Source: Thermoleophilia bacterium (GTDB lineage Bacteria > Actinomycetota > Thermoleophilia > RBG-16-64-13). Taken from it: 64,000 bases of DNA. Both the position numbers and the translations under genes were made by a program. Positions within the stretch are counted from its first letter, which is position 1. Every line of letters starts with the position of its first letter. The stretch lies in assembly GCA_026415615.1 (NCBI GenBank), contig JAOAGT010000002.1:448545-512544 (forward strand), in the 5' to 3' direction. The notes beneath the pieces were generated by a model. The model was not told where the DNA came from and did no database searches. It saw only the letters and a program-made list of their open reading frames with translations. Shown here piece after piece: positions 39,819 through 54,617 of this stretch.

Positions 39819-40143
39819 CCAGTTGTCTCCTTTAGCCTTCACATATGTGGTCTTGCGATCGGCCAAACCATAGGTCCTGATCAAGCTTCCATTATCCAGG
39901 ATTGGCTAGCTGTTTGAAGGCTCTTTTGTGACCGTAGTTGATCATCCAGTTAACGCGGGCGTACACTAGGCAAAGACCAGCCTGCGAAGGTGCAGAGCAA
40001 TCCAAGCGGTCTGCCGTGTCGAGCTCTTCTTGTCGTCTTGAGCTCTTCTATTGCCTGCCGGCGCGTAAGAATATCGACCGGCTGGTAGGGTTCCCGTAGT
40101 AAGATGGCCGGAGCTAAAAACACCGAAAGGAAGGTTCCAAGAG

Positions 40144-40554
40144 ATGCCGGTTGATGTAATTACCGCTGACACCCTCAACAAAGAGACCATTAAAGAAGCA
40201 CTGGACCCAGACTTTCCCAACGTCTTTGTTGACGAAGACGGGGATTTGGGGGTGAGGGACCTTTGCATCTGCTACCTGCTTCCGAACGTGGAGCAGAAGA
40301 GGCTGAGACTGCTCACTCTTTGGCATTTTAGGAAAGAGGTAGGGGAGCTCGAGAAGTATCTTTGCGCAAACCGCATAAATGTAGACTATGCCATCGTGCG
40401 GGCGGCTGTGGTGGGGAATAACCTTGCCATGACATACGATGTTTCTTTGGAGGGAGACGGAATATCTCGTCGGTCTCTGGTTCTTTTGATAAAGCGTTTC
40501 TGCTCTGCAGCCCTGGCTTCTGCCATGGAGTATGGGCAAGGTCTGCTTTCCTGA
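40144..40554 (+). CDS. hypothetical protein (136 aa)
   Basis: ORF with GAAAGGAAGG ribosome-binding site. No clear motif. Possibly YbjN-like. Confidence 0.35.
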   Translation: MPVDVITADTLNKETIKEALDPDFPNVFVDEDGDLGVRDLCICYLLPNVEQKRLRLLTLWHFRKEVGELEKYLCANRINVDYAIVRAAVVGNNLAMTYDVSLEGDGISRRSLVLLIKRFCSAALASAMEYGQGLLS

Positions 40555-40735
40555 GATAGACAGAGGGAAAGAGCTCATCTGGCCGGGTATAAGAGCCCGA
40601 GGGAGGTTTGAAAAGAAAGGGCGCTGCGTAGCCAAGAGAGCGGCGCCGGCAAAGAGGAGCGGCCCGCCGATGGCGGGCCGCTCCTCTTTGGTCTTAAGCC
40701 TTTTCCCGAGCCTCGGGACCGAAGGCTCCAGAGTT

Positions 40736-41587
40736 CTACTTGCTAAGCACAATGTCGCCCAGGTTGACAGACGTGAAAGTCCTTGCCTCTAGCACCTGGT
40801 CCTTGTAACCAGCCATTGAAACCGTGAGCTTGTACTTGGTATTGGCTGGCAGCCCGTCGAACTCAAAATCGCCGAAGCCGTCGGTGACTTTGGTTTGCTT
40901 GGCGCCAGTCGGATTCCCGTCCACATCAAGCTCCTCAAGCGTCACCGTCGCTCCCTTGGCGCACTCATCGGTGTCGCCAAGGACTACGCACCCGGCTATG
41001 AAGCTCTTGGGCAACCCGATATAGCGGACCTTCTCTTTTAGACCAAATTCGGGATGAAGCACCTCGGTCTGGCTTGAGGCAAGCAGTTTCGAGATGGCGC
41101 TGTTTGGATCATCCAGGTCGCCAAAGACAAGAGCTCCGGTGGGGCATGCCTCCACGCAGCGAGGCTCCTTCCACCCAGCATCCAGAAGGTGGGCACAGAA
41201 CGTGCATTTCTGGGGTAGCTGGGACTCCTCGTTCCAGAAGATCACCCTGTACGGGCAACGGTTAACGAGTTCCTTTTGGCCCTTGGCCTTGACGGGATCA
41301 ATGATCACTATGCCGTCGTCACGCTTGTAGACGGCGCCATCTCGCGAAGCCGCCACACAGGGGGCGTCATCGCAGTGCATGCAAGGGATGGCCGTATAGT
41401 CAACCTTGACCTTGGGGTACTGGCCCCGCTGGGTCTCAATGACGTTCATCCAAGTCTGCCCGGTCAGAGGCTGGGCCGCCGCATACGGGCTGTGATCATT
41501 GCCGCAATGCTCGTCCTTGCAGGCAATGAAGCAGTTGTAGCACCCAATACAGTGGGCGACGTCGATCACCATTCCGTACCTGGTCAT
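40736..41587 (-). CDS. molybdoenzyme Fe-S (4Fe-4S ferredoxin-type) small subunit with C-terminal Ig-like/carboxypeptidase-regulatory-like domain (BthL-like)
   Basis: CIGCYNCFIACKDEH, CMHCDDAPCVAAS, CPYRVIFWN, CTFCAHLLDAGWKEPRCVEACP cluster motifs. C-terminal beta domain GDFEFDGLPANTKYKLTVSMAGY. Confidence 0.85.
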   Translation of the reverse strand: MTRYGMVIDVAHCIGCYNCFIACKDEHCGNDHSPYAAAQPLTGQTWMNVIETQRGQYPKVKVDYTAIPCMHCDDAPCVAASRDGAVYKRDDGIVIIDPVKAKGQKELVNRCPYRVIFWNEESQLPQKCTFCAHLLDAGWKEPRCVEACPTGALVFGDLDDPNSAISKLLASSQTEVLHPEFGLKEKVRYIGLPKSFIAGCVVLGDTDECAKGATVTLEELDVDGNPTGAKQTKVTDGFGDFEFDGLPANTKYKLTVSMAGYKDQVLEARTFTSVNLGDIVLSK

Positions 41588-41588
41588 C

Positions 41589-44093
41589 TTAGGCCTCCCA
41601 TCTGGTTATCTCGATCAAGCACGAGTTGGGTGCCATGCCCGGTGCATTCTTAGAGAGCAGTCTCGCCGGCGTGAGCAGGTTGACGCATCCGCCTCTGTCA
41701 ATGGCGCCAGGCTTACCGGGCTCCAGCGGGTCGTACTTGGCCGATCCTTCATATGAGTGAACAACGCCAGGCCGAACTCTCTCGGTAACTTCGGCGGCGC
41801 ACAGCACCGCAGCGCGGTCGTTAAACAGCTTCACGATGTCACCGTTCTTGATGCCTCTGGCCTCAGCGTCCCGCGGATGGATGCGCACGATCCAGTAGTC
41901 GTAGCCGTTCTTGCGCATCCGGTGGATGGGGATCTCTGACAGCCACGGCACATGGGTGTCGTGGTGAGTATGGAAGCTAAACCGCGGATGCGGGGATATG
42001 AGCTGCAACGGGTACTTCTTGGCTAGCTCAGAGGTATGCCCCTCCCAGCTTGGGATGTACTTGGGCATTGGCGCCCGCTCAGTGTCATCCGGGGTATGCG
42101 CCAGCAAGCTTTGCGACACGAACTCGATCTTACCGCTGTAGGTGCCAAGCTCGTGCGCCTTCTCGGTGCCGCGCTTGGGATTGGCAAAGTCAGGCGTGTC
42201 GCAAGGTCTGCCCTCGTAGAACCACCGCAGGGCTGGAGTGGGCTTGTAGTTCTCGATCTGCGGGACCACAAAGTAGCCCTTGCGCTTGAACTCCTCGAAG
42301 GATATGTACTTGGGCAGATCCGAGGCGTAGAACATCTTCTCGATCCACTCCTCGATGGTCTTGCCTTCGGTGTAATCCTCGAGGAAGCCAAGGCGTTCAG
42401 CAAGTCCGCAGAAGATGTCCCAGTCAGAACGTGACTCACCAAGCGGCTCGATGCACTTCTGCTGGTAAATAATGACGCGGTGGTTGCAGCTACCAGAAGC
42501 GTGGAGGGAGTATCCGCCCGAGCTTGCCCACTCGCTAATGTCGTTGCGCTCCAAGTTGGTGCACGCCGGCAGAATGACGTCAGCAAAGCGAGTCTCCGTG
42601 GACCACCAGCAGTCCTGGTTGACCACAAACTCCAACTTCGGGCTCTGATACATCCGGACCCAGCGGTTGGTCTCGGTCATAGTGGCGATGAATGCGCCCC
42701 CATACCGATAGAACATCTTCACCTCAGAGTGTCCCGGCAGCGGGTACACAAATTTGGTGAACTGCTGTTCGAGCGATCCGCCGCAGAAGCCCTCGCCCAT
42801 CCATTCGATGTGCCCATCAAGGATTGCTTCCGGCACAAGCAAGCGGTACACGCGCTGCTTAACCGGGTTAATCGCCTTCTTCTCAGCGATGAGGTTAAAC
42901 CCGCCGCTGGCGTATCCCGGGAAGTCAAGCTCGTAGTTGTACGGCGGCCCGTTAGTGGTGCCCCATATGCTGACTCCGGGCTTGCCCAAGCCTTGCATAG
43001 CTTGCAGGAAGACCAGCATCCGGTCGTGCTCGGTAGCGTAGGCTTGACGGCAGTGACCACCCTCGCCGCCTTTGGTGCCGCCTGCCAGGCAAGTGCGGTT
43101 GGCGGCCCACTCGCGAGCCAACGCAACGATGGTGCGGGCCTCGACTCCGGTGATCTCAGCTGCCCATCTGGGGTCCTTAGGTACGCCGTCTTCTTCGCCG
43201 AGCACATACTTCTTGAACTCATCAAAGCCAATAGTGCGATTGGCGATGTAGTCCTTGTCGTAAGTGCCCTCGGTAAGCCAGACATAGGCGATGCCCAGAG
43301 CCAACGCTCCCGTGGTGCCGGGCCGGTAAGCGATCCACTTATCTCCTACCGCAGCGCCGGTGTAGTTGTAGAACGGGTCGATGATAATCTGCCGAATGCC
43401 CTTTTCTTTGAACCAATAACGCCAGAGTGCGGACTCATTACCCCCGTAGATGCCGTGGGTGGAGTCGGCGTCGTTTCCCCAGTGGATAATGAGCGTGGTA
43501 TGCCTCAGTGTTTCCTCGAGCATGTCGTAATGCTCGGGGTTGCCGAGGCGCCAGTAGAAGCCCCAGGCGTGTGTGGCTCCCCAGTGCCAGCCTTCCCAGC
43601 TGTCTGGGTTGTCCAGGATGTCGGTAAAGCCGAGCATGTTGAAGAAGCGAGCCCACGCCCCGGTGCGATAGCCCAGGTTACCCCAGTTGTGATGCGAGGA
43701 AGCGCGGGACATGATGGCTTCGGGACCATAGGTCTCCCGAATCCGCTTCATCTCATTCGCAACTAGGTCCAGCGCCTCGTCCCAGCTGATCCTCACATAT
43801 CCGGACTTGCCCCGGTTTTGGGGATTGCGCTCACCGTTTGGATCGAAGTCAACCCGCTTCATGGGGTAGAGGATCCGGTCCTCAGAGTAGACGCGGGCTT
43901 TTTCCGTCAAGGTGAAAGGCGCAACACAGGCTTTACGTGGAGGCGTGTACTTCTTGCCTTCAACATCGATTACCCAAGACGGGGCGTCCGTCTCGTCAAA
44001 GACGAGCGGACGCACCCGTACTATCTTTCCATCCTTGACATGGACTCGGATTGGGCCGCCGGCAGTGCAGTTAATAAATGTCTGCTCCGACAT
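41589..44093 (-). CDS. molybdopterin oxidoreductase large subunit, pyrogallol-phloroglucinol transhydroxylase (AthL)-like, lacking an N-terminal Fe-S motif
   Basis: 834 aa. N-terminus MSEQTFINCTAGGPIRVHVKDGKIVRV has a single Cys (no CxxCxxxC). Conserved YPMKRVDFDPNGERNPQNRG, SSHHNWGN, DSWEGWHWG, LPACTNLERND. Confidence 0.8.
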   Translation of the reverse strand: MSEQTFINCTAGGPIRVHVKDGKIVRVRPLVFDETDAPSWVIDVEGKKYTPPRKACVAPFTLTEKARVYSEDRILYPMKRVDFDPNGERNPQNRGKSGYVRISWDEALDLVANEMKRIRETYGPEAIMSRASSHHNWGNLGYRTGAWARFFNMLGFTDILDNPDSWEGWHWGATHAWGFYWRLGNPEHYDMLEETLRHTTLIIHWGNDADSTHGIYGGNESALWRYWFKEKGIRQIIIDPFYNYTGAAVGDKWIAYRPGTTGALALGIAYVWLTEGTYDKDYIANRTIGFDEFKKYVLGEEDGVPKDPRWAAEITGVEARTIVALAREWAANRTCLAGGTKGGEGGHCRQAYATEHDRMLVFLQAMQGLGKPGVSIWGTTNGPPYNYELDFPGYASGGFNLIAEKKAINPVKQRVYRLLVPEAILDGHIEWMGEGFCGGSLEQQFTKFVYPLPGHSEVKMFYRYGGAFIATMTETNRWVRMYQSPKLEFVVNQDCWWSTETRFADVILPACTNLERNDISEWASSGGYSLHASGSCNHRVIIYQQKCIEPLGESRSDWDIFCGLAERLGFLEDYTEGKTIEEWIEKMFYASDLPKYISFEEFKRKGYFVVPQIENYKPTPALRWFYEGRPCDTPDFANPKRGTEKAHELGTYSGKIEFVSQSLLAHTPDDTERAPMPKYIPSWEGHTSELAKKYPLQLISPHPRFSFHTHHDTHVPWLSEIPIHRMRKNGYDYWIVRIHPRDAEARGIKNGDIVKLFNDRAAVLCAAEVTERVRPGVVHSYEGSAKYDPLEPGKPGAIDRGGCVNLLTPARLLSKNAPGMAPNSCLIEITRWEA

Positions 44094-44107
44094 GCGCTAT
44101 AGCCCTC

Positions 44108-45331
44108 CTAGTCGACTGGTGCTGCGTTCAGCAAGGCCATGTCCGTCGTTGCAAATCCATGCAGGAAGCTGTAGACGTCCCTTAGATGCTTGCTGAAGGG
44201 CACGTCGTCATCAGTTGTACCGTATCCGCCGAAGATGCCGCACGCGTGGTTGACAAACTCCACGCCGATTTGGTCGACAAAGGCCTTGACCAGCATTCCG
44301 ATCTTCGGATTGTAGTCGTGCTTTGTCTGGTACGACCAGGCACCCTTCCAGAGCAGCGCCCGAGCCGCCTCAAGCTTGGCCTGCATGTCGGCGATCTTCA
44401 TGGCGACATGGTGATGCTGAATGATGGGCTTTCCGCCCTGCACCCGCTTCTTAGCGTAGTCCAGAGCCTCTTCATAAATTGCCCTCACCGTGCCCAGGTT
44501 GGCAGCAGCGCCCAGGAGCCCAAACGGCGGTGGAACTCCTTGCGGGGTCTTGGACCAGTCTTTCTGCGGGCCTCCCCACTCGCCTTCGGTTCCCCAAGCC
44601 TCGCCTTCCTTACCTACGAGGTAGCGGGCCGGAATCCGAGCGTTCTCGAAAACTAGCTCAGCGTTGGCAAGCAGCCTCCTACCCAACTTGTTGTGGAACC
44701 GGCCGATCCGCAACCCTGGGGTGTCGTGCGGCACGAGGAAGCAGCTCAGGCTGGTGGAGATGGGGCCCTTCCTGTCGGTACGGGCATACAGGAAATAAAG
44801 CTTGGCGATGCCGCCGCAGGAAATGTAATGCTTAGTGCCGTTAATAATGTATTCGTCGCCTACTCTTTCGGCATAGGTTTGAATTGAGGCTCCCGGCTCG
44901 TCGTAGAGGAAGTGAGAGTCGGTTCCCGCCTCCGGCTCGGACCGCGCCAGACCCAGGAGGAAGGTGTCGTCTTCCAGGAACTTTGGCAACCACTCGTCGC
45001 GCTGTTCAGGTGTGAGCTCCCCGACAAGTCGTGGAGACTCGGTGTAGCAGCCGCGGATGATGGTGGCAAAGCCCTGGTCTGCCACTCCCAGTTCCTCGAG
45101 GACGATGCAGAGAGTAAGGTAATCCGCGCCTCCGCCTCCCCACTTCTCAGGGATGGCAAGAGTACGAAGACCAAGCTGCGAAGCCTTCTTGATCAGGTCC
45201 CACGGGACACAGTCAATCGGGTTCGGCCGCCGGTCGTACTCCATGGCCACGGGCTTCACCTCGTTCTCGGCGAAATCCCGCACCATGTCGCGGATCATCT
45301 GTTGTTCTTCGGTTAGATAAAAATCAACCAT
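44108..45331 (-). CDS. acyl-CoA dehydrogenase family protein
   Basis: 407 aa. Acyl-CoA dehydrogenase fold with a C-terminal IFGGYG...TDMALL helical domain. Confidence 0.85.
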   Translation of the reverse strand: MVDFYLTEEQQMIRDMVRDFAENEVKPVAMEYDRRPNPIDCVPWDLIKKASQLGLRTLAIPEKWGGGGADYLTLCIVLEELGVADQGFATIIRGCYTESPRLVGELTPEQRDEWLPKFLEDDTFLLGLARSEPEAGTDSHFLYDEPGASIQTYAERVGDEYIINGTKHYISCGGIAKLYFLYARTDRKGPISTSLSCFLVPHDTPGLRIGRFHNKLGRRLLANAELVFENARIPARYLVGKEGEAWGTEGEWGGPQKDWSKTPQGVPPPFGLLGAAANLGTVRAIYEEALDYAKKRVQGGKPIIQHHHVAMKIADMQAKLEAARALLWKGAWSYQTKHDYNPKIGMLVKAFVDQIGVEFVNHACGIFGGYGTTDDDVPFSKHLRDVYSFLHGFATTDMALLNAAPVD

Positions 45332-45605
45332 GCAATTCCTATCCTCCTTCCAGCACCGAGAGGCTGCCGCCGACGTTGGCTAGATCACCGGAGGTCCGGT
45401 GGTTGCTGTAGCTGAAGACCAGCCCAGCAACTAGCTCCATCATAGTACTTGTTGTTGCTGCGCGGGCCGTTTTAAGTCAACTTGTCATGACTTGGCCAAA
45501 CTATTACGGGAAGGTATGAATCCGGACCGCTGCCAGAGCTAGACGAATCTGGACTGCCGTCAGCACCAGATCAAGGTGGAATGTTGCCGCCACGAGACAC
45601 TCGGG

Positions 45606-46490
45606 CTAGCCCCGCTGGACAATGGCGCTCTTTATGTGGAGCATTAGGGCGCGGGCCGCTGCCGGGAGGGGCCGGTCGCGGGGATAGATAAGAGTAAGGT
45701 CTCGGTAGAGAGGACGTTCAAACGGGACCACTACCAGATCTTCAGCATTATCTGCGGTGGCAAGCATTTTTGGCATGGGAGCAACCCCAAAACCTTTGCT
45801 TACCAAAGCCTTGATCAGCTCTGGGTAATTGGCACGATAGGAGAAGCGAGGCTCCACGCCTGCTCGCCGCAGGGCGTCGGCTGCAATGTTCCCCGCATTC
45901 ATGGTGGTACGCGGGAGAAGTATCGATTCTCCAGCAAGCATCTTGAGCGGAACGCGGGGGAGGCGAGCCAACCGGTGGTTTCGCGGCACCACAAGCACTA
46001 TTTCTTCTGTAAGAAGATGCTGCGCAGCAGTGCGTGACGAACCCCAGGGAGTTATTACCGCGCAGTCGAGTTCCCCACGAATGACTGCCTCTTCGAGCTG
46101 AGCGTCATCCTTTTCCACGAGGTCTACACTGACATGGGGATAGGCTTCCAAGAACGAAACTAGAATAGGAGTAAGAAGCAGTGCCATGACGTTGCCGACG
46201 GCGCCAAAACGCACCGAACTGGATGTGGCTCCGGCCTGTTCGCGTATGAGAGCGATGGCCTCCTCGGTTCGGGCGACGATTGCTTGGGCCAAGGGCAATA
46301 AGAGCTGGCCGGCTGCGGTGCATTCCACGTGCCGTCCGTATCGCTCAAAGAGCTGAGCTCCCAGCTCACGCTCTAGTCGCGCTATCTGCCTGCTCAGGGT
46401 AGGCTGCGTGGAGTGCATAGCGCGAGCCGCCCGGCTGAAACTTCGGGCTTCGGCTACGGCAAGAAAGGATTTGAACAGCTCCAGGTCCAT
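45606..46490 (-). CDS. LysR family transcriptional regulator
   Basis: MDLELFKSFLAVAEARSFSRAARAMHSTQPTLSRQIARLE HTH plus LysR substrate-binding domain. Confidence 0.9.
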   Translation of the reverse strand: MDLELFKSFLAVAEARSFSRAARAMHSTQPTLSRQIARLERELGAQLFERYGRHVECTAAGQLLLPLAQAIVARTEEAIALIREQAGATSSSVRFGAVGNVMALLLTPILVSFLEAYPHVSVDLVEKDDAQLEEAVIRGELDCAVITPWGSSRTAAQHLLTEEIVLVVPRNHRLARLPRVPLKMLAGESILLPRTTMNAGNIAADALRRAGVEPRFSYRANYPELIKALVSKGFGVAPMPKMLATADNAEDLVVVPFERPLYRDLTLIYPRDRPLPAAARALMLHIKSAIVQRG

Positions 46491-46640: not shown

Positions 46641-47417
46641 ATGAACATTGTAGTTTGCGTGAAACAAGTTATCGACACCGAAGCCGAAAACAGGCTCAAC
46701 CCGGAGACGTGGCGCGTAGACCGCAGCGTCAATTGCATTCTCAACCCCTATGACGAGTATGCAGTGGAAGAAGCGCTAAGGCTTCAAGAGGCGCACGGCG
46801 GCCAGGTTACTGTGGTTTGCATGGGACCAGAGAAGGCTGCTGAGGCCGTGCGGAAGGCTCTGGCCATGGGAGCAGACAGCGCCGTGCTGGTGAGCGACGA
46901 AGCTTTGGCCGGTTCCGATGTGCAGGGTACCGCGTATGCGCTGGCGGAAGCTCTCAAGGGGCTAACCTTTGATCTCCTGATTTTCGGCAACCGTTCCACC
47001 GACGGCGAAACAGGGTGCGTACCTGCAGCTGTGGCCGAGCGACTGGGCATTCCGTTCTTGTCTTGCTTGTCCAAGGTCGAGGTCAACGGGAACACCCTAT
47101 CTGTCCATCGGGAAACAGACCAAGGCCATGTTGCGTATGAATGCCCGCTGCCGGCTGCCATTTCGGTGGTCAAGGGAATCAATGAGCCTCGGTATCCAAG
47201 CATCAAGGGCATCATGACCGCAAAGAAAAAGCCGCTCGACGTCAAGAATGTGGCGGCTCTTGGTCTGGACGCTGGCCAAGTAGGGGCTGCCGGGGCAAAG
47301 ACCAAGGTCCTGACAGCAACCGTTCCAGAGCCACGCAAGGCTGGGGTCAAGATTGAGGACGACGGTTCAGGCGGCAAGCGCATAGCTGAGTTCTTGGCTG
47401 GCGCCAAGCTCATCTAG
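46641..47417 (+). CDS. etfB: electron transfer flavoprotein beta subunit
   Basis: MNIVVCVKQVIDTEAE...NPYDEYAVEEALRL. Confidence 0.9.
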   Translation: MNIVVCVKQVIDTEAENRLNPETWRVDRSVNCILNPYDEYAVEEALRLQEAHGGQVTVVCMGPEKAAEAVRKALAMGADSAVLVSDEALAGSDVQGTAYALAEALKGLTFDLLIFGNRSTDGETGCVPAAVAERLGIPFLSCLSKVEVNGNTLSVHRETDQGHVAYECPLPAAISVVKGINEPRYPSIKGIMTAKKKPLDVKNVAALGLDAGQVGAAGAKTKVLTATVPEPRKAGVKIEDDGSGGKRIAEFLAGAKLI

Positions 47418-47434: not shown

Positions 47435-48424
47435 GTGAGCAACAAGACTGGGATCCTGGTTGTAGCTGAGCCCGGCCAAGGCCGGCTGGCTAACGTTACT
47501 CTCGAAAGCATTACTCAAGCTCGGGTGCTTGCGGCGTCCCTGGGCGGGCCCGTGAGTGTGGCCGTGATCTCCTCTGAAGCGGCTCCTCTGGTGGCTCAGG
47601 CTGGACGGTTTGGGGCAGACAAAGTCTACGTGGTAGAGAGCCCCGAACTTAGCGTATTCCGGTCCGGCACGTTTGCTGATGCTGCCACGGCGGCGATCAA
47701 AGCGGCAGACCCGGCGGTGGTGCTCTTTTCTAATTCGAACGATGGTCGGGATGTGGCAGCAGCGTGTGCTGCTCGTCTGGGCGTAGGACTCTTGGTGGAC
47801 GTCACCGATTTGCAGGTGAAAGACGGGACGCTTCGAGCTTATCATCCGTGCTTTGGTGGGCGGATGATTGCTGAAAAAGAGGCCACTTCCGTTCCCGTCA
47901 TGGTCACGGTCCGGCCAAGCGCGTTTGCGCGCGAAGAGGCTCCTAAGGAACCCGAGGTTGTCCCGCTTGCTGTTGATTTTGGGCCGACAAGCCTCGCTGC
48001 AAAGATAGTGGATGTGGTCACCGAGAGTCTCGGGGAAATTGCCCTCGAGGAGGCTTCGGTCATCGTAGCCGGTGGACGCGGAGTGGGAAGCGCAGAGGGA
48101 TTTGGCGTCTTGCGCGAATTGGCCAAAGAGCTGGGGGCTGCGGTGGCAGCGAGCCGAGCTGTGGTGGATCTCGGTTGGATGCCTCACCAGAGCCAGGTTG
48201 GCCAGACGGGCAAGACCGTTTCGCCGCAGCTTTATATTGCCTGCGGGATTTCCGGGTCCATCCAGCACCGAGCTGGTATGCAGACTTCCAAATGCATCGT
48301 GGCCATCAACAAAGACCCCGAGGCGCCCATCTTTTCCATTGCCGACTTTGGCGTGGTGGGAGATCTCTTTGCTGTCGTGCCGGCGCTGACCGAGGAAATT
48401 CGTCGTCGCAAAGCGGGAGCCTAA
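47435..48424 (+). CDS. etfA: electron transfer flavoprotein alpha subunit
   Basis: C-terminal FAD domain ...[36 protein letters not shown]. No N-terminal ferredoxin domain. Confidence 0.9.
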
Positions 48425-48488: not shown

Positions 48489-50180
48489 ATGACTCAAGAA
48501 CGAGAGGTAATGGAGGTCGATGTCCTCTATGTGGGCGGAGGCGTTGCCTCTCTAAGTAGCGCTCTTCACCTGTCAAATCTTATTAATGCTCACAACGCCA
48601 AGGGCGAGGGCAAGAAGCTTGATGAGGTTATGGTAGCGGTCCTCGAGAAGGGGGCCTACTTTGGAGCTCACGGCATTTCCGGAGCAGTGATGGCTCCTGG
48701 CCCGCTTAAAGAGCTGATACCCGACTACTTAGACAAAGGCGCCCCCATTGAGGGAGAGGTAACAAAAGAATCCATCTACCTTCTGACCGAGCGGGGCAAG
48801 ATTAAGTCTCCCATTACTCCTCCTCCACTTAATAACCACGGCAACGTCGTCATATCCATGGCGAAGATGAATCAATGGCTGGCTGGCCTAGTGGAGGAGA
48901 ACGGCGTTTACATGTTCCCCAGCTTTGCTGGAGTTGAGCTTCTCTACGACGGGGACAGGGTCATTGGAGTTCGCACTGGAGACAAGGGAGTTGGCCCCGA
49001 CGGGCAAAAGAAGCCCAACTATGAACCGGGAGCCGACGTCATCGCCCGGGTGGTCGTGTTAGGCGAGGGTTCGCGTGGAAGCTTGACCAAAGAGGTCATA
49101 AAGCGTTTCGGGCTTGATCGCGGCAAGAACCCGCCAGGATTTGAGGTTGGTGTAAAAGAGGTTTGGGAGATACCTGCTGGTCGTATCGAGCCTGGCGAAG
49201 TAATCCACACCATGGGGTATCCGCTCAAGAGCGATACTTTTGGCGGGGGCTTCATCTACGGTATGAAAGACAATCTGGTGTGCCTCGGCCATCTCACCAG
49301 TCTGGATTATTCAGATCCTTTCATTGATCCCCACCGCGAGTTCCAGCGTTTTAAGCTTCATCCTTTGGTGAGAGGACTACTGGAGGGCGGCAAGCTTGTC
49401 CAGTACGGGGCCAAGACTGCGCCAGTGGGTGGATATTACTCGATTCCCAAGCTCACCTTCCCTGGCGGTTTGCTAATTGGTGACGGCGCCAACCTCTTCA
49501 ACGCCCAGAAAATCAAAGGCGTGGATATAGCTATGCGGTCAGGAATGCTGGCTGCAGAGGTTATTTTCGCTGCACTGGTTAACGACGATTTTTCTGAGTC
49601 CCGCCTTGCGGCGTACGAGCAGGCCATGGCTGAGACCAAGGAAATGAAGGACCTGTACAAGGTGCGGAATTTCCATCAAGCCATGACGCGCGGGCTGTAT
49701 TTGGGCCTGCTTACCGCGGCTGCTCAGTATGTTCTGGGAGGGCGAGTACTTAAGAACAGGTTGCCTGCTACTCCGGATCATACCCACCTGAAAACTGTCG
49801 CGGAGAAGTACGGCACAACTACCCCGAGCCCCGAGGCGGTGCGCGACTTCAAGTATGACGGCAAGCTCACTTTTGACAAAGAGACAGACGTTTACTACTC
49901 GGGAACGGTTCACGAAGAAGCTCAGCCCTCTCATCTCAAGATAAAGAGCTTGGACATTTGCTACGGGGAGTGCGCTACACGTTATCAATATCCTTGCGTC
50001 AGGTTCTGTCCAGCCGGGGTCTATGAGATTGAGGTGGACGAGTCTACCGGGCAGAAGTCGCTCAAGATTAACTTCTCAAACTGCGTTCATTGCAAGACGT
50101 GTGATGTGAAGGATCCTTTCGAGAACATCCAATGGGTGCCCCCGGAAGGAGGAGGAGGTCCCAAGTACACAGTCGTGTAG
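48489..50180 (+). CDS. electron-transfer-flavoprotein:quinone oxidoreductase (ETF-QO/FixC-like) with C-terminal 4Fe-4S ferredoxin domain
   Basis: VDVLYVGGGVASLSSA FAD motif. C-terminal CVRFCPAGVYE...CVHCKTCD. Confidence 0.85.
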   Translation: MTQEREVMEVDVLYVGGGVASLSSALHLSNLINAHNAKGEGKKLDEVMVAVLEKGAYFGAHGISGAVMAPGPLKELIPDYLDKGAPIEGEVTKESIYLLTERGKIKSPITPPPLNNHGNVVISMAKMNQWLAGLVEENGVYMFPSFAGVELLYDGDRVIGVRTGDKGVGPDGQKKPNYEPGADVIARVVVLGEGSRGSLTKEVIKRFGLDRGKNPPGFEVGVKEVWEIPAGRIEPGEVIHTMGYPLKSDTFGGGFIYGMKDNLVCLGHLTSLDYSDPFIDPHREFQRFKLHPLVRGLLEGGKLVQYGAKTAPVGGYYSIPKLTFPGGLLIGDGANLFNAQKIKGVDIAMRSGMLAAEVIFAALVNDDFSESRLAAYEQAMAETKEMKDLYKVRNFHQAMTRGLYLGLLTAAAQYVLGGRVLKNRLPATPDHTHLKTVAEKYGTTTPSPEAVRDFKYDGKLTFDKETDVYYSGTVHEEAQPSHLKIKSLDICYGECATRYQYPCVRFCPAGVYEIEVDESTGQKSLKINFSNCVHCKTCDVKDPFENIQWVPPEGGGGPKYTVV

Positions 50181-50224: not shown

Positions 50225-50680
50225 ATGGCACGGCCCGAAGAACAGAAAATTGTGGAGATTTTTAAGGCCGCTAAGACCGGCGAAGATATTCTCGCAGCGT
50301 GGGCTGCTCAGCGGCCAGGGTACAAGCCCAGCGGCGCCGGCGACCCGAGCCTGGATTTCTGGGTAAAGCGCAGACCGGACATGCTGCATACCTTTGCCCA
50401 TAACCAGCTCACCCAGCTGCTTGATCGCGGCATCCTCGATCCGAAGACCCGTTACCTCCTGCTCGTGGGTCTCTACATGATGCAGGGTCATTACGACGGG
50501 GTTCTGCCGCAGGCCTGCAACGCCAAGGCTGCTGGTGCTACCGAGGAAGAGCTCATGGAAGTGGCTTTCTGCGTTTGCTACTCCGTGGGCAAGGCCAAAC
50601 TCCAGGAGACTGGCGCCTGCCTGGACAAGGTTTTCTCCAATCCGATGTTCCAGCAGATCAAGCGGGTCGGCGAGGAGTAA
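50225..50680 (+). CDS. carboxymuconolactone decarboxylase (AhpD-like) family protein
   Basis: 151 aa helical protein with a CxxxC-like region (AFCVCYSVG) in an AhpD-fold pattern. Confidence 0.65.
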   Translation: MARPEEQKIVEIFKAAKTGEDILAAWAAQRPGYKPSGAGDPSLDFWVKRRPDMLHTFAHNQLTQLLDRGILDPKTRYLLLVGLYMMQGHYDGVLPQACNAKAAGATEEELMEVAFCVCYSVGKAKLQETGACLDKVFSNPMFQQIKRVGEE

Positions 50681-51580: not shown

Positions 51581-51625
51581 TCGAACTCTAGCGGCTGTTA
51601 TGATGCCGGAGATGTCGAACAAACT

Positions 51626-54199
51626 GTGATGGAGAGTGGGGGTATGATCGCGCGCACTACGGCCTGGTCAGCGGGCCCCGGCTGCCACGGAGGGTGCGGG
51701 GTTCTAGCTTATGTTGAGGACGGCAGACTGGTAAAGGTGGAAGGGGATCCGGATCATCCCATCAACCGGGGACGGCTCTGCGCCCGGTGTCTGGCGATGC
51801 CCCAGTACATCTATCACCCGGATCGCCTACGCAGTCCCAGGATTAGAGTTGGCGAGCGCGGCGAGGGAAAGTGGAAAGACATCTCTTGGGAGGAGGCCTT
51901 CGACTATATAGAGGAAAGAATGAAGGCCATCCGAGACAAGCATGGGGCCGAAAGCGTGCTGTTTGCTATGGGCACCGGTCGTGATGTCGGGGCCTGGATC
52001 TGTTTGCTTGCTTACAACTATGGGAGTCCCAACGTAGTTTTTGCCCTATCCGGAATCGGATGCTACACGCCTCGTATTGTGGCCTCCGAGACAGTGTTGG
52101 GTGACTACTGCGTGTTTGACGGTGGGCAGTGGCTTCCGCAGGGACACGATGATCCGGCGTACCGAGTGCCGGAGTGCATCGTTATCTGGGGTTACAACAT
52201 TAACGCCTCTTGCCCAGACAATATCTTTGGTCACTGGGTGACCGATCTCATGAAAAAGGGCTCCAAGCTCATCACGATCGATCCCCGTCTTACCTTTTTT
52301 GCTTCGCGAGCCGACAAGTGGCTTCAGCTTAGGCCTGGTACAGATGGTGCCCTGGCTATGGGCTTTCTCAATGTGATCATCGAAGAAGGACTCTACGACA
52401 AGGAGTTTGTAGAGAAGTGGACAAATGCTCCCCATCTGATCCGGACCGACACAGGTACGCTCTTGCGCGCTTCGCACCTGGTTGCTGATGGCTCGCCTGA
52501 CGACTTTGTGGTCTGGGATCTTGCCGGTGGACGTCCTGCTATATGGGATTCGGCCAACGTGGAGTTTCGCAGTCCTGGGGTGACTCCTGCGTTGGAAGGA
52601 AGCTTTACCGTGCGTCTGGCTGACGGTTCCTCGGTTACCACTGAGACGGTGTGGTCGCTGTTCTGCAGGGAAGTCGCCAAGTATCCTGTGGAGGAGGTTG
52701 CGAGAATCACCTGGCTCAAGCCGGACGATATCAGAGAAGCTGCCCGTCTATATGCCACGAGCAAACCCGCCACCATCCAGTGGGGCGTGGCAATTGATAT
52801 GACTCCGGCCATAACTCCCACCTCAATGGCTATTGCCGACCTTTGGTGCATTACCGGCAACCTTGACGTGCCGGGGGGAAATGTGATTGCGCGCCCGGCT
52901 TTTGGGGCAGTGCCGTACGCTCTACCTGGGCAAAGGGGGCCTATCCGGCTGCCCGATGAAAGCATCGACGAAAAGCGCATAGGTCGAGACCGTTACGGAG
53001 CTCTAAGAGAGTTCATTTGGCGGGCCCACACCGATCTTGCGTTGGAACAGATCTTTACCGGAGATCCGTACCCGATTAAGGGAATGTGGATTCAGTGCTG
53101 CAACTTGGTAGGAGGCATAGGGTACGACCCGGAGCGATGGGTGAGGGCTTTGAAGAAGCTCGACTTTGTCGCTGTGGTGGACACTTTCATGACGCCTACT
53201 GCGGAGCTTGCGGACATCGTGCTACCCGCGGCTACTTTCTTAGAAAAGAACGGAGTGCGCAGCTGGTGGACTCCGCTTGAGGCCATTGTCAAGGTTGTTG
53301 AAGTGGAAGGGTGCAAACCGGACAACGAAATCAACTTTGAGCTTGCCAGGCGCTTTAATCCAAACATGAAGTGGAAGTCCTGCGATGAGCTTCTGGACGA
53401 GATCGTAAGTCCAGCGGGCGTGACCTTCAAAGAGCTTGCCGAGAAGGGCTGGATTCTTCCTCCTGATGGTCATCCGAGCGCTCCCTACCGCCGACACGAG
53501 CGCGGTTTACTTCGGCCCGACGGAAAGCCTGGCTTTAAAACTCCATCGGGCAAGGTAGAGCTCTACTCAGTCTTGCGGGAAAAATGGGGGTTTGAGCCCT
53601 TGCCACACCACGAGGAGCCGCCTTTTAGTCCGGTGGCGAGCCCAGACCTCTTCCAGCGATATCCGCTTATTCTCACCACTGGGAGGCGCTCTCCCGTGTA
53701 CTTTAACTCCGAGCATCGCAATATCCCTTGGCTTCGTGAGGCCGACCCCGACCCAGTGGTTGAACTTCATCCTGAGACTGCCGCTGCCCTAGGCATCGGC
53801 GATGGCGAGTGGGTCTGGATAGAGAACATGTTTGGGCGGTGTCGACTGAAAGCCAAGCTCACGCGTGTAGTGCCGCGCTGGCTAGCCTCTGCTACGCATG
53901 GATGGTGGTACCCAGAGAGAGAAGGTGCCGAGCCGTCGCTGCGGGGAGTTTGGGACTCAAGCACAAATCAACTGCTTCCTATGGGCTATCAGGGCAAAGA
54001 CGGATTGGGGACCCATGCCAAGTGCACCATCTGCCGGGTCTATCGGGCCCACACCGCTCCTCCCAGCGCCTATGCCATGCCAGAGGGCGGTGTCATTGGT
54101 GGAGTACTAAAGCCGAGATCGGTGCCTCATGGTGCGGCTCCAGGCCACGCCTCGGCGCCGGCCGGATCGGCGGGGCGGGAAGACAGAGAGGAGAAGTAA
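51626..54199 (+). CDS. molybdopterin-dependent oxidoreductase catalytic subunit (DMSO reductase/MopB superfamily), cytoplasmic
   Basis: N-terminal 4Fe-4S site CHGGCGV...C...CARC. 857 aa. No twin-arginine signal. Gly/Ala/Pro-rich C-terminal tail. Confidence 0.85.
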   Translation: MMESGGMIARTTAWSAGPGCHGGCGVLAYVEDGRLVKVEGDPDHPINRGRLCARCLAMPQYIYHPDRLRSPRIRVGERGEGKWKDISWEEAFDYIEERMKAIRDKHGAESVLFAMGTGRDVGAWICLLAYNYGSPNVVFALSGIGCYTPRIVASETVLGDYCVFDGGQWLPQGHDDPAYRVPECIVIWGYNINASCPDNIFGHWVTDLMKKGSKLITIDPRLTFFASRADKWLQLRPGTDGALAMGFLNVIIEEGLYDKEFVEKWTNAPHLIRTDTGTLLRASHLVADGSPDDFVVWDLAGGRPAIWDSANVEFRSPGVTPALEGSFTVRLADGSSVTTETVWSLFCREVAKYPVEEVARITWLKPDDIREAARLYATSKPATIQWGVAIDMTPAITPTSMAIADLWCITGNLDVPGGNVIARPAFGAVPYALPGQRGPIRLPDESIDEKRIGRDRYGALREFIWRAHTDLALEQIFTGDPYPIKGMWIQCCNLVGGIGYDPERWVRALKKLDFVAVVDTFMTPTAELADIVLPAATFLEKNGVRSWWTPLEAIVKVVEVEGCKPDNEINFELARRFNPNMKWKSCDELLDEIVSPAGVTFKELAEKGWILPPDGHPSAPYRRHERGLLRPDGKPGFKTPSGKVELYSVLREKWGFEPLPHHEEPPFSPVASPDLFQRYPLILTTGRRSPVYFNSEHRNIPWLREADPDPVVELHPETAAALGIGDGEWVWIENMFGRCRLKAKLTRVVPRWLASATHGWWYPEREGAEPSLRGVWDSSTNQLLPMGYQGKDGLGTHAKCTICRVYRAHTAPPSAYAMPEGGVIGGVLKPRSVPHGAAPGHASAPAGSAGREDREEK

Positions 54200-54200
54200 G

Positions 54201-54617
54201 GTGTCGGATCACAGAGTGAATTCAGACGCCAGCGTCAGCCAGGGTGCACCCACGAGTGGTGAAACAAAGCCGCGTCGTGACAAGCAACCCGAGTATGGCC
54301 TTCTCATTGACTATGAATTCTGCACCGGGTGTTTTGCTTGTCAGGTGGCCTGTCAGCAAGAGCACCGCTGGCCGTCGGGATTGGGAGGCATTCGGGTGCA
54401 GGAGATAGTCCAAAATTTGCCGAATGATCGGGCCTACCTTACATATCTCCCCTTTCCGACCGAGCTCTGTGTCCTGTGTGCTGCACGCACTCGTAAAGGG
54501 CTTCAACCCGCATGCGTCCAGCACTGCATGGCTCGCTGCATGAAATATGGGCGACTGGAGGATCTCGTCAAGGAGATGACGAAGCCGCGGATGGTGTTAT
54601 GGGCGCCTCGCGCGTGA
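54201..54617 (+). CDS. 4Fe-4S dicluster ferredoxin-like electron-transfer subunit
   Basis: CTGCFACQVACQQEH and CVLCAARTRKGLQPACVQHC motifs. GTG at 54201 directly follows the TAA of the Mo subunit (GAGGAG ribosome-binding site inside the upstream gene). The six-frame ORF from 54129 overlaps the upstream CDS. Confidence 0.65.
   Translation: MSDHRVNSDASVSQGAPTSGETKPRRDKQPEYGLLIDYEFCTGCFACQVACQQEHRWPSGLGGIRVQEIVQNLPNDRAYLTYLPFPTELCVLCAARTRKGLQPACVQHCMARCMKYGRLEDLVKEMTKPRMVLWAPRA

What the first reader, a model, noticed from the sequence alone, without database searches (positions are those of the whole stretch)
40736..44093. Pyrogallol-phloroglucinol transhydroxylase-like molybdoenzyme (large subunit without Fe-S motif; small subunit with Ig-like tail)
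The 834 aa MopB-family subunit lacks the N-terminal CxxCxxxC 4Fe-4S motif found in most DMSO-reductase-family enzymes. It begins ...GGPIRVHVKDGKIVRV and carries YPMKR / DSWEGWHWG stretches. The 283 aa FeS partner ends in a carboxypeptidase-regulatory/Ig-like beta domain. This architecture is characteristic of the Pelobacter transhydroxylase AthL/BthL family, which performs cofactor-independent hydroxyl transfer between phenols. There is no TAT signal, so it is cytoplasmic. The substrate is unknown and it may link to the aromatic cluster upstream.
Basis: partly seen in the sequence, partly recalled or inferred. Interest (0 to 1): 0.55.

Follow-up and report, generated by a model that had tools for sequence, protein, structure and literature searches.

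The report
Phenol transhydroxylase wired to flavoprotein module
The two genes do encode a cytoplasmic molybdenum enzyme of the pyrogallol-phloroglucinol transhydroxylase family from an uncultured soil or sediment actinobacterium; the family is already widely annotated, but here it sits in a strictly conserved gene module with an unusual flavoprotein and an electron-transfer chain that nobody seems to have described.

Summary
ORFs 41589-44093(-) (834 aa) and 40736-41587(-) (283 aa) are the alpha and beta subunits of an AthL/BthL-type molybdoenzyme. They score 926 and 214 bits to the Pelobacter acidigallici transhydroxylase, and the model has TM 0.91 to 4v4c_A. The N-terminal domain is PF21423 with no Fe-S motif. 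The Ser ligand and catalytic His/Asp/Tyr are present. All 12 cluster cysteines and the Ig-like tail are present. There is no TAT signal.

The source is a Thermoleophilia MAG, not a gut organism. The protein is not a specific AthL orthologue. It is about 52% identical to both AthL (transhydroxylase) and RhL (resorcinol hydroxylase), which are 57% identical to each other. It belongs to a very large, biochemically uncharacterised sister clade (at least 583 species).

Close relatives (75% identity) lie inside complete phloroglucinol-pathway clusters (PGR, DPGC, TfD, TAL). This supports a phloroglucinol-forming transhydroxylase.

In the window's lineage those genes are absent. Instead the pair is the distal part of an operon headed by an acyl-CoA-dehydrogenase-like protein whose catalytic Glu is His. 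That operon sits next to LysR and divergent bifurcating-type EtfBA plus an ETF:quinone oxidoreductase. The module is conserved in about 30 loci and its role is unknown.

The family call is ordinary. The module is a new variant.

The parts
41589..44093 (-). Alpha (catalytic) subunit, 834 aa. It is a Mo-bisMGD protein of the AthL(PgtL)/RhL family with no N-terminal Fe-S cluster and no TAT signal. Ser165 is the predicted Mo ligand (codon 43599-43601). His134, Asp164 and Tyr394 correspond to AthL H144, D174 and Y404. Arg143 corresponds to R153, and Glu344 replaces AthL W354.
   Evidence: Pfam PF21423+PF00384+PF01568. 4v4c_A scores 925.6 bits against 286 or less for DMSO/TMAO reductases. Active-site columns. 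AF2 model pLDDT 76, Foldseek TM 0.91/0.87 to 4v4c_A.
40736..41587 (-). Beta subunit, 283 aa, with three [4Fe-4S] clusters (12 Cys) and a C-terminal Ig-like / carboxypeptidase-regulatory-like beta domain. Its ATG lies 1 nt after the alpha stop codon.
   Evidence: Fer4_11 + CarboxypepD_reg. 4v4c_B 214 bits, aligned over residues 1-266. All 12 Cys ligands are invariant in 47/47 homologues, and identity to BthL is 43.7%.
44108..45331 (-). First gene of the operon: an acyl-CoA-dehydrogenase-fold flavoprotein (407 aa). The catalytic Glu (MCAD E376) is His391, and the alternative base position (MCAD T255 / IVD E254) is Thr. I call it 'His-ACAD'. It lies 14 nt upstream of the alpha gene.
   Evidence: Three ACAD Pfam domains. 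Full-length alignment to MCAD 3mdd, 169 bits. His invariant in 10/10 syntenic orthologues and in 114/115 family representatives. Always followed by alpha/beta in orthologues at or above about 72% identity.
45606..46490 (-). LysR-type regulator, upstream of the operon and divergent from etfB.
   Evidence: HTH_1 + LysR_substrate. Conserved in this position in module loci.
46641..47417 (+). EtfB (small ETF subunit), bifurcating-type by similarity.
   Evidence: PF01012. Best PDB hits are 4kpu_B at 160, 5ol2_B at 147 and CarD at 147 bits, against Paracoccus 124 and human 99.
47435..48424 (+). EtfA (large ETF subunit), bifurcating-type by similarity.
   Evidence: ETF + ETF_alpha. Best PDB hits are CarE at 251, 5ol2_A at 242 and EtfABCX 7koe at 207 bits, against respiratory ETFs at about 165. 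NCBIfam best hit is AcrA.
48489..50180 (+). ETF:quinone oxidoreductase (563 aa). In other module loci it is replaced by a 5-TM + Fer4 + CCG membrane oxidoreductase.
   Evidence: Fer4_ETF_QO + ETFQO_UQ-bd. Replacement seen in L001, L016, L037, L088, L100, L103, L104 and L107.
50225..50680 (+). Small CMD/AhpD-like protein (151 aa) after ETF-QO. The same kind of protein sits beside His-ACADs in unrelated contexts.
   Evidence: Weak PF02627 hit, E 3.8e-4, below the gathering score. Orthologues (c38) in L009, L010, L011 and L037. 'CMD (weak)' neighbours in L081, L087 and L089.
51626..54617 (+). Possibly associated second molybdoenzyme: an acetylene-hydratase-like MopB (857 aa, with an Fe4S4 domain) plus a small ferredoxin-like subunit (about 54200-54617). 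It is preceded by a radical-SAM gene (50837-51580).
   Evidence: 2e7z 280 bits. Pfam and NCBIfam. Same position in L010, L090 and L095 at 82-87% identity. Homologues at 50-54% lie next to alpha/beta in L046, L049, L051, L066, L074 and L078.

Best explanation
SHOWN. The two ORFs encode the alpha and beta subunits of a cytoplasmic Mo-bisMGD enzyme of the pyrogallol-phloroglucinol transhydroxylase / resorcinol hydroxylase (PgtL-AthL/RhL) family. The alpha subunit has Ser165 as Mo ligand and no FS0 cluster. The beta subunit has three [4Fe-4S] clusters and an Ig-like domain. The protein belongs to a very large, biochemically uncharacterised environmental clade ('clade I') that is sister to the clade holding both characterised enzymes.

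INFERRED. It catalyses a hydroxyl shift on a trihydroxybenzene, most likely pyrogallol to phloroglucinol. The phenol would bind at Mo(VI), with His134, Asp164 and Tyr394 acting as the acid/base and co-substrate-positioning residues, as proposed for the Pelobacter enzyme.

SHOWN. In this actinobacterial lineage the pair forms the distal two genes of a three-gene operon headed by an ACAD-fold flavoprotein that has His in place of the catalytic Glu. The operon always sits beside a LysR regulator and a divergent operon for bifurcating-type EtfB/EtfA and an ETF:quinone oxidoreductase.

INFERRED. The flavoprotein chain performs a redox step that is obligatorily linked to the hydroxyl-transfer step in the same pathway. 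The nature of that step is not established.
For: Family membership:
- 925.6 and 214 bits to 4v4c chains A and B, against 286 and 130 or less for the next families.
- PF21423 AhtL-specific first domain.
- Foldseek TM 0.91 to 4v4c_A against about 0.73 for DMSO reductases.
- AthL residues H144, R153, D174, S175, W176, Y404 and Y560 are all conserved.
- 12/12 Fe-S cysteines are invariant.

Reaction type:
- 25 of 81 clade-I loci carry at least one phloroglucinol-pathway gene within 10 kb, and 5 carry all four (SDR/PGR, cyclase/DPGC, 3HCDH/TfD, BKACE/TAL). These are the families defined biochemically in PMC10470551.
- The nearest outgroup of the window's subclade (L004-L006, 75% identity) has TAL-DPGC-PGR-cupin-TfD directly upstream on the same strand.
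- Only 5 alignment columns separate the window's subclade from the pathway-linked relatives. All are conservative and none is at a known active-site position.

Module:
- The arrangement ACAD-like/alpha/beta + LysR + EtfBA is present in 9 genome loci, in L088 and in 22 metagenome loci.
- Alpha follows the ACAD-like gene in 12/12 contigs that reach far enough.
- The subclade is monophyletic in 59/60 bootstraps.
Against: - No member of clade I has been assayed.
- The protein is as close to RhL, a net oxidative hydroxylase, as to AthL (52.3 against 52.4% over the N-terminal 365-390 residues), while AthL and RhL are 57% identical to each other.
- Support for clade I excluding AthL and RhL is only 36/60 NJ bootstraps, on 287 columns.
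- Position 354 (Trp in AthL, Phe in RhL) is Glu here and in 67/97 relatives. Its role could not be checked because the structure paper is not held.
- No DPGC, TfD or TAL gene lies anywhere in the 64-kb window or within 10 kb in any of about 30 module loci. So the fate of a phloroglucinol product in this lineage is unknown.
- A strictly conserved ETF chain is not expected for a redox-neutral isomerase.
Confidence: 0.58

Rival explanations
1. Net redox enzyme. The alpha/beta pair works as a water-dependent phenol hydroxylase, like resorcinol hydroxylase RhLS. Alternatively it uses such a half-reaction to make or replenish the tetrahydroxybenzene co-substrate, or to re-poise Mo. Electrons would leave Mo through the three [4Fe-4S] clusters of beta to the FAD of the His-ACAD, then pass to EtfAB, the ETF:quinone oxidoreductase and menaquinone. 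The chain could also run in reverse for a reductive dehydroxylation.
For: - Equidistance to RhL.
- All 12 Fe-S cysteines are under strict conservation although the Pelobacter reaction has no net electron flow (the unexplained role of the clusters is established knowledge of the family).
- The His-ACAD lacks both known catalytic-base positions, so it need not be a conventional acyl-CoA dehydrogenase.
- The module is strictly conserved.
- ETF-QO is replaced by a non-homologous 5-TM Fe-S/CCG membrane oxidoreductase in 8 loci. This argues that the link from ETF to the membrane quinone is the selected function.
- Phloroglucinol-pathway genes are absent from all module loci.
Against: - Arg143 matches AthL R153, not the Tyr of RhL.
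- The alpha subunit is nearly indistinguishable at conserved positions from relatives embedded in phloroglucinol clusters.
- Both ETF subunits resemble bifurcating or reductive ETFs rather than respiratory ones.
- Electron transfer between a MopB beta subunit and an ACAD-fold protein has no precedent known to me.
- His-ACADs at or below 70% identity occur without any Mo enzyme, so the flavoprotein has a substrate chemistry of its own.
Confidence: 0.22
2. Two consecutive pathway steps. Alpha/beta makes a meta-hydroxylated or hydroquinone-type phenol. The His-ACAD, with ETF as its redox partner, then acts directly on that aromatic product. It could be an ETF-dependent dearomatising reductase standing in for the NADPH-dependent phloroglucinol reductase. 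It could also be a hydroquinone dehydrogenase analogous to the hydroxyhydroquinone dehydrogenase step of nitrate reducers. His would serve as the acid/base for a phenolic or enone oxygen instead of a thioester alpha-carbon.
For: - Operon order and a 14-nt spacing imply co-expression.
- The best family matches of the ACAD-like protein and of both ETF subunits are the enoyl-CoA-reductase complexes AcrABC, CarCDE and Bcd-Etf.
- The module loci contain no CoA ligase or CoA transferase.
- PGR, DPGC, TfD and TAL are missing from module loci, whereas they accompany alpha/beta elsewhere.
- His-ACADs elsewhere sit with OYE, AOR, aldehyde dehydrogenase and glycyl-radical enzymes, not with beta-oxidation genes.
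Against: - This is purely contextual. No ACAD-fold enzyme acting on a free phenol is known to me.
- If phloroglucinol were reduced, a ring-opening DPGC would still be needed, and none is nearby.
- The role of a quinone oxidoreductase in a reductive scheme is unclear.
Confidence: 0.15
3. S-/N-oxide reductase, as the database names of its relatives say ('S/N-oxide reductase-like', 'TMAO reductase').
For: NCBIfam bisC_fam scores 411 bits and torA or dmsA models score 300-360 bits. The source names are listed. DMSO/TMAO reductases are the next-best structures.
Against: - All those scores are far below the curated cut-offs (1017, 1465 and 777).
- AthL scores 926 bits against 286.
- S-/N-oxide reductases of this type (DorA, TorA, BisC) have no Fe-S beta subunit and lack the PF21423 domain.
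- DorA differs at the H144, D174 and W176 columns, where it has W, Y and T.
Confidence: 0.03

Closest known systems
Pyrogallol-phloroglucinol transhydroxylase AthL/BthL (PgtL/PgtS, 'pgthAB') of Pelobacter acidigallici, PDB 4v4c (originally 1TI2 and related entries)
   Same: - Two-subunit architecture.
- AhtL-type first domain instead of an Fe-S domain.
- Ser Mo ligand.
- H144, R153, D174, W176, Y404 and Y560 conserved.
- Three [4Fe-4S] clusters with identical Cys pattern.
- Ig-like C-terminal domain of beta.
- Cytoplasmic.
- Fold TM 0.91.
   Different: - 52% (alpha) and 44% (beta) identity only.
- Lacks AthL's 8-residue insert after residue 95 and the approximately 27-residue insert at 417-443.
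- W354 is Glu.
- Belongs to a sister clade.
- Operon with a His-ACAD and a neighbouring ETF/ETF-QO module, not reported for Pelobacter in any paper I could read.
Resorcinol hydroxylase RhL/RhS of Azoarcus (Aromatoleum) anaerobius (UniProt A0N0U2)
   Same: Same family. It shares H144, D174, S175 and W176 and, like the window protein, lacks the AthL insert 'GLSKQDPW'. Identity to the window protein equals that of AthL, at 52.3% over 363 residues.
   Different: RhL has Tyr at AthL-R153 and Phe at 354. It catalyses a net oxidation with water as oxygen donor. Only its first 400 residues were available, and RhS was not available.
Environmental 'AthLS/pgthAB' genes reported in Chloroflexi, Dehalococcoidia, SAR116 and peat MAGs (Hug 2013 PMC3971608; Wasmund 2016 PMC4959651; PMC12203004; bioRxiv 10.64898/2026.07.17.739263)
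   Same: Same clade. The window protein is 62-75% identical to Dehalococcoidia, Desulfobacterota and Rhodospirillaceae members. As in those reports, function is assigned by homology only.
   Different: Those reports do not describe the ACAD-like/ETF module. Many of those loci carry the phloroglucinol pathway instead.
Enoyl-CoA reductase / ETF complexes (Bcd-EtfAB, CarCDE, AcrABC) and EtfABCX
   Same: The flavoprotein part of the module (ACAD fold + bifurcating-type EtfAB + ETF:quinone oxidoreductase) has these as best matches.
   Different: The catalytic Glu of the ACAD is His. There are no CoA-activating enzymes. The genes are genetically fused into one module with a MopB enzyme.

Membership tests
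PgtL(AthL)/RhL family of Ser-ligated MopB enzymes (alpha subunit) | AhtL-type N-terminal beta domain in place of the FS0 [4Fe-4S] domain | tested here: met
   PF21423 E 7.8e-23 at residues 13-66. No PF04879 hit. Only C9 and C56 in the first 80 residues.
PgtL(AthL)/RhL family of Ser-ligated MopB enzymes (alpha subunit) | Serine ligand to Mo in the motif N-P-D-S-W-E-G-W | tested here: met
   Ser165 aligns with AthL S175. Ser is found in 97/97 relatives and in RhL and DorA.
PgtL(AthL)/RhL family of Ser-ligated MopB enzymes (alpha subunit) | Closer in sequence and fold to AthL than to DMSO/TMAO/biotin-sulfoxide reductases | tested here: met
   926 against 286 bits. TM 0.91 against 0.73-0.75. Groups with AthL and RhL against a DorA outgroup.
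PgtL(AthL)/RhL family (beta subunit) | Three [4Fe-4S] clusters (12 Cys) plus a C-terminal Ig-like beta domain, encoded directly downstream of alpha | tested here: met
   Gene spacing is 1 nt.
Pyrogallol-phloroglucinol transhydroxylase sensu stricto (EC 1.97.1.2) | Catalytic residues His144, Asp174 and Tyr404, and substrate-pocket residues Arg153 and Tyr560 (numbering and roles recalled from Messerschmidt et al. 2004, which is not held in the library) | tested here: met
   Window H134, D164, Y394, R143 and Y528. H144 and D174 are also present in RhL, so they are not discriminating. R153 is discriminating, because RhL has Tyr there.
Pyrogallol-phloroglucinol transhydroxylase sensu stricto (EC 1.97.1.2) | Specific orthology to AthL, meaning closer to AthL than to enzymes with another reaction | tested here: not met
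   52.4% to AthL against 52.3% to RhL, with AthL-RhL at 57.1%. The NJ tree puts the window in a sister clade of AthL+RhL.
Pyrogallol-phloroglucinol transhydroxylase sensu stricto (EC 1.97.1.2) | Genomic association with phloroglucinol catabolism (PGR, DPGC, TfD, TAL) | tested here: inconclusive
   Met for the clade: 25/81 loci, and 5 with all four genes, including the nearest outgroup L004-L006. Not met for the window (64 kb) or any module locus within 10 kb. The rest of the genome could not be examined.
Pyrogallol-phloroglucinol transhydroxylase sensu stricto (EC 1.97.1.2) | Redox-neutral conversion of pyrogallol to phloroglucinol that depends on 1,2,3,5-tetrahydroxybenzene | not testable with these tools
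   Requires enzymology.
Resorcinol hydroxylase RhLS type (net oxidative hydroxylase) | Sequence signature of RhL at substrate-pocket columns (Tyr at AthL-153, Phe at 354) | tested here: not met
   The window has Arg and Glu.
Acyl-CoA dehydrogenases (for the co-transcribed 44108-45331 gene) | Catalytic glutamate at the MCAD-E376 position or the IVD-E254 position | tested here: not met
   His391 and Thr at those columns. His in 114/115 family representatives.
Bifurcating-type (group 2) ETF | Higher similarity to structurally characterised bifurcating ETFs than to respiratory ETFs | tested here: met
   EtfA 251/242/207/206 against about 165 bits. EtfB 160/147/147 against 124/99 bits. Whether a second FAD is bound and bifurcation occurs was not tested.

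The most novel reading that the evidence does not exclude
In Thermoleophilia and Gaiellales-type actinobacteria the transhydroxylase-type Mo enzyme is not a stand-alone redox-neutral isomerase. It is one arm of a dedicated electron-transfer machine made of the beta-subunit Fe-S chain, a His-ACAD flavoprotein, bifurcating-type EtfAB, an ETF:quinone oxidoreductase and menaquinone. In some loci a second Mo enzyme sits on the other arm.

This machine would let the enzyme carry out net hydroxylation or dehydroxylation of polyphenols, or generate its own tetrahydroxybenzene co-substrate. It would also give the long-unexplained Fe-S clusters of this enzyme class a physiological partner.

The His-ACAD family itself would then be a new class of ACAD-fold redox proteins that do not act as acyl-CoA alpha,beta-dehydrogenases.
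Probability: 0.2. Interest if true: 0.7.

Novelty: new variant of a known kind. Interest (0 to 1): 0.42.

Why it matters
Polyphenol turnover in anoxic soils, peat and sediments is now being modelled from metagenomes, and 'pgthAB' is used there as a marker gene. This analysis makes three points.

1. Almost all environmental 'pgthA' genes, the window's included, belong to a clade with no assayed member. That clade is as close to an oxidative hydroxylase as to the one characterised transhydroxylase.

2. For part of that clade, gene neighbourhoods independently support a phloroglucinol-forming role.

3. One actinobacterial lineage has swapped that context for a strictly conserved flavoprotein/ETF/quinone module.

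If the module exchanges electrons with the Mo enzyme, it offers a direct experimental handle on two old open questions about this enzyme class. The first is what the beta-subunit Fe-S clusters are for. The second is where the tetrahydroxybenzene co-substrate comes from. The module also flags an uncharacterised ACAD lineage that has His in place of the catalytic Glu.

Tried and rejected
- Start-codon correction or a hidden upstream Fe-S motif: excluded by the stop codon and RBS directly upstream.
- Link to other window genes: the TRAP transporter (16399-19736) is only 26-32% identical to TRAP systems in phloroglucinol clusters. The two SDRs are only 33-38% identical to PGR-like SDRs. No cyclase, BKACE or 3HCDH hit occurs anywhere in the window. 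The 'aromatic cluster' link was therefore dropped.
- Promoter and terminator scan of 39800-46800: counts no higher than in shuffles, so uninformative.
- Reading the primary papers on the structure (PMC511022), on RhLS (PMC1913315) and on the hydroxyl-transfer reactions (PMC208538): none is held. Residue roles therefore rest on my memory of Messerschmidt et al. 2004.
- RhL and AthL sequences could be recovered only as the first 400 residues, from a supplement. The phylogeny therefore uses 287 columns.
- The first bootstrap run timed out and was redone with a faster distance routine.
- The look-up of encoding contigs for the window's own protein: not on record.
- A common context that would name the His-ACAD's substrate: the contexts are heterogeneous.
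- S-/N-oxide reductase annotation: rejected.
- Gut-bacterial catechol dehydroxylases: a different MopB clade, acetylene-hydratase-like (PMC7028382). They are relevant only to the second MopB at 51626-54199.

Full report
**1. Observation**

The window has ORFs at 41589-44093(-) (834 aa) and 40736-41587(-) (283 aa). The large subunit starts 14 nt after the TAG stop of the preceding gene and is preceded by GGAGG, so no longer N-terminus is possible.

Its first 80 residues hold two cysteines only. Pfam assigns PF21423 'AhtL-like_1st' (E 7.8e-23) there, followed by Molybdopterin and Molydop_binding. The small subunit has Fer4_11 plus CarboxypepD_reg. There is no twin-arginine motif.

**2. What it is**

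Against all PDB sequences, the two proteins hit the two chains of the Pelobacter acidigallici pyrogallol-phloroglucinol transhydroxylase. The scores are 925.6 and 214.3 bits. The next families score 286 bits or less (DMSO/TMAO reductases) and 130 bits or less (PhsB/NrfC).

An AlphaFold2 model (pLDDT 76, pTM 0.76) superposes on 4v4c_A with TM 0.91/0.87 (E 3e-90). DMSO reductases reach about 0.73.

In AthL numbering, H144, R153, D174, S175 (Mo ligand), W176, Y404 and Y560 are conserved. These are window residues H134, R143, D164, S165, W166, Y394 and Y528. W354 is Glu344. The roles of these residues are recalled from Messerschmidt et al. 2004, which the library does not hold.

All twelve cysteines of the three [4Fe-4S] clusters are invariant in 47/47 small subunits. 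NCBIfam hits to S-/N-oxide reductase models are far below their cut-offs.

**3. Source and spread**

The identical protein is GenBank MCX8032765.1, 'MAG: molybdopterin-dependent oxidoreductase [Thermoleophilia bacterium]', on a 518-kb contig. The CWB2 domain protein nearby had at first suggested a Firmicute, but the organism is an uncultured actinobacterium.

More than 6,400 proteins match at E of 1e-30 or better. The best 120 are 67-85% identical and 819-857 aa long (nearly all 832-843 aa), and they carry only generic names. At least 583 GTDB species encode a relative. These include Thermoleophilia/Gaiellales, Dehalococcoidia, Desulfobacterota, Rhodospirillaceae, Neomoorella sulfitireducens, and Bathyarchaeia and Methanoperedens MAGs.

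Such 'AthLS/pgthAB' genes have been noted in MAG studies since 2013 and are now routinely annotated.

**4. Position in the family**

The first 400 residues of RhL (resorcinol hydroxylase, A0N0U2) and AthL (P80563) were recovered from a supplement.

| Pair | Identity |
|---|---|
| Window to AthL | 52.4% |
| Window to RhL | 52.3% |
| AthL to RhL | 57.1% |

Overall identity to AthL is 52.2% over 818 columns.

I built an NJ tree on 287 columns with DorA as outgroup. It places the window and all 80 closest genome hits in one clade (clade I). This clade is sister to a clade containing AthL, RhL and some second copies from the same loci. A third, more divergent paralogue clade (36-42% identity) also exists.

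Support for clade I excluding AthL and RhL is moderate (36/60). The window's actinobacterial subclade is well supported (59/60).

At 50% clustering, the AthL/RhL/clade-I group collapses into about two representatives. Many relatives at 35-43% identity carry TAT signals.

H144, D174, S175 and W176 are shared with RhL and so define the family, not the reaction. R153 (Arg in AthL and the window, Tyr in RhL) favours the transhydroxylase side.

**5. Independent evidence for the reaction**

I ran an unbiased census of ORFs in the 80 loci. It found four recurrent same-strand neighbours:

- an SDR;
- a cyclase-family protein (PF04199);
- a 3-hydroxyacyl-CoA-dehydrogenase-family protein;
- a BKACE protein (PF05853).

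Twenty-five of 81 loci have at least one of them, eight have three or more, and five have all four. Many contigs are short, so these are lower bounds.

The nearest outgroup of the window's subclade is Dehalococcoidales L004-L006 at 75% identity. It has TAL-DPGC-PGR-cupin-TfD-(ADP-forming acyl-CoA synthetase)-FmdE-alpha-beta.

Only five columns distinguish the window's subclade from pathway-linked relatives. All are conservative and none is at a known active-site position. This is the main reason I favour a phloroglucinol-forming transhydroxylase.

**6. What differs in the window**

Neither the 64-kb window nor any syntenic locus has DPGC, TfD or TAL. Instead the pair is preceded, 14 nt upstream, by a 407-aa ACAD-fold protein. 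This protein aligns end to end with MCAD, but it has His391 at the catalytic Glu376 column and Thr at the alternative base column.

The His is invariant in ten syntenic orthologues. It is also present in 114 of 115 representatives of a wider family, down to 45% identity.

Upstream lies a LysR gene. Divergent from it are etfB, etfA and a 563-aa ETF:quinone oxidoreductase. Both ETF subunits score best against bifurcating-type ETFs (CarDE, Bcd-Etf, EtfABCX, A. fermentans Etf) and lower against respiratory ETFs. NCBIfam best hits are the acryloyl-CoA reductase subunits.

This arrangement recurs in nine genome loci, in L088 and in 22 metagenome loci whose His-ACAD is 67-100% identical. An alpha gene follows the His-ACAD in 12 of 12 contigs that extend far enough.

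In eight loci the ETF-QO is replaced by an unrelated protein with five transmembrane helices plus Fer4 and CCG domains. This non-orthologous displacement argues that a link from ETF to the membrane quinone pool is what is selected.

Beyond the ETF genes there is a small CMD/AhpD-like protein. After it comes a second molybdoenzyme:

- an acetylene-hydratase-like MopB with a small ferredoxin subunit in the window, L010, L090 and L095;
- a divergent AthL-like pair in L009, L088, L094 and L109.

His-ACADs at or below 70% identity occur without any Mo enzyme. They sit next to aldehyde dehydrogenase, OYE, AOR, glycyl-radical enzymes or GlcD/CCG-type oxidoreductases, often with a CMD-like protein.

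**7. Mechanism**

Shown: family, cofactor-binding architecture, catalytic residues, cytoplasmic location, operon structure, and conservation of the module.

Inferred (most likely, about 0.58): Mo-centred hydroxyl transfer of the pyrogallol-to-phloroglucinol type. The flavoprotein chain would perform a linked but separate redox step.

Rival 1 (about 0.22): the alpha/beta pair itself exchanges electrons with the His-ACAD/ETF/quinone chain through the beta-subunit clusters. This would mean net hydroxylation as in RhLS, priming of the co-substrate, or reductive dehydroxylation.

Rival 2 (about 0.15): the His-ACAD acts on the phenolic product. It could be an ETF-dependent dearomatising reductase replacing PGR, or a hydroquinone dehydrogenase.

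Rival 3 (about 0.03): S-/N-oxide reductase.

None of the first three can be separated without enzymology or the complete genome.

**8. Comparison and novelty**

As a member of the PgtL/RhL family, the pair passes every structural membership test. As 'the' pyrogallol-phloroglucinol transhydroxylase, it fails the specific-orthology test and is inconclusive on pathway context.

The family call is ordinary, and such genes are widely annotated. I found two things in no paper in the library:

- the conserved coupling to a His-ACAD/bifurcating-type ETF/ETF:quinone oxidoreductase module;
- the His-for-Glu ACAD lineage as such.

I therefore rate it a new variant of a known kind, of moderate interest.

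Noticed in passing
window 44108-45331 (-); P0121-P0240: This is a whole ACAD-fold lineage in which the catalytic Glu (MCAD E376) is His ('LHG' motif) and the alternative base position is not Glu. It covers 114 of 115 cluster representatives, down to 45% identity. Its contexts are heterogeneous: glycyl-radical enzyme plus activase plus ETF, GlcD/CCG plus CoA-transferases plus B12 mutase, OYE plus AOR, and aldehyde dehydrogenase. The substrate is unknown.
   Followed up: partly
window 50837-54617 (+); L010, L046, L049, L051, L066, L074, L078, L090, L095: An acetylene-hydratase-like MopB (857 aa, Fe4S4 domain, best PDB hit 2e7z) with a ferredoxin partner of about 110-140 aa, preceded here by a PA0069-like radical-SAM gene. 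It recurs next to AthL-like genes and phloroglucinol-pathway clusters in several phyla. This is the MopB clade to which gut catechol dehydroxylases are related, so it may be another polyphenol-modifying enzyme.
   Followed up: partly
window 50225-50680 (+); L009, L010, L011, L037, L081, L087, L089: A protein of about 150 aa with a sub-threshold CMD/AhpD-like hit follows ETF-QO in the module. Similar 'CMD (weak)' proteins sit beside His-ACADs in loci that have no Mo enzyme, which suggests a His-ACAD partner protein.
   Followed up: partly
L012-L035, L038-L043, L065 (Dehalococcoidales): Clade-I alpha subunits (66-72% identical to the window's) have no beta-subunit gene within the contig, including long contigs such as L024, L033, L034 and L042. 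They are flanked by ExoIII and HAD genes upstream and often a nitroreductase downstream. Either they are 'orphan' large subunits that work without the Fe-S partner, or the partner is encoded elsewhere.
   Followed up: partly
L001, L016, L037, L088, L100, L103, L104, L107: ETF-QO is replaced in the same position by a protein of about 675-720 aa with five N-terminal transmembrane helices plus 2x[4Fe-4S] and CCG domains. It resembles the membrane ETF:menaquinone oxidoreductases of syntrophs. This is a non-orthologous displacement within one conserved module.
   Followed up: partly
P0243-P0278 (representatives at 35-43% identity): Many distant AthL-like proteins carry twin-arginine signal peptides (SRRSMLKW..., SRRDFLK...) and long low-complexity linkers. 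They would be exported members of a family otherwise known only from cytoplasmic enzymes.
   Followed up: no
L004, L005, L049 and others: Two AthL/BthL pairs occur in tandem or in the same cluster, one from clade I and one from the AthL/RhL-like clade, inside phloroglucinol-pathway clusters. An FmdE-like protein sits directly upstream of alpha in L004-L006. The two pairs may handle different hydroxybenzene isomers.
   Followed up: no
window 20837-22093 (+), 60881-61534 (-), 24901-29212 (+), 14473-16320 (-): The window also has a URO-D-like methyltransferase and a separate corrinoid (B12-binding) protein, which are possible O-demethylase parts. It has a GlcD/CCG/GlcE-like oxidoreductase trio, a tungsten-type aldehyde:ferredoxin oxidoreductase next to an SDR, and a TRAP transporter. 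No demonstrable link to the Mo enzyme was found.
   Followed up: no
window 35107-36336 (-), 38856-39884 (-): There is a protein with three CWB2 cell-wall-binding repeats, typical of Clostridia, in an actinobacterial MAG. There is also a stand-alone GMP-synthase C-terminal / PP-loop ATPase without the glutamine amidotransferase domain.
   Followed up: no
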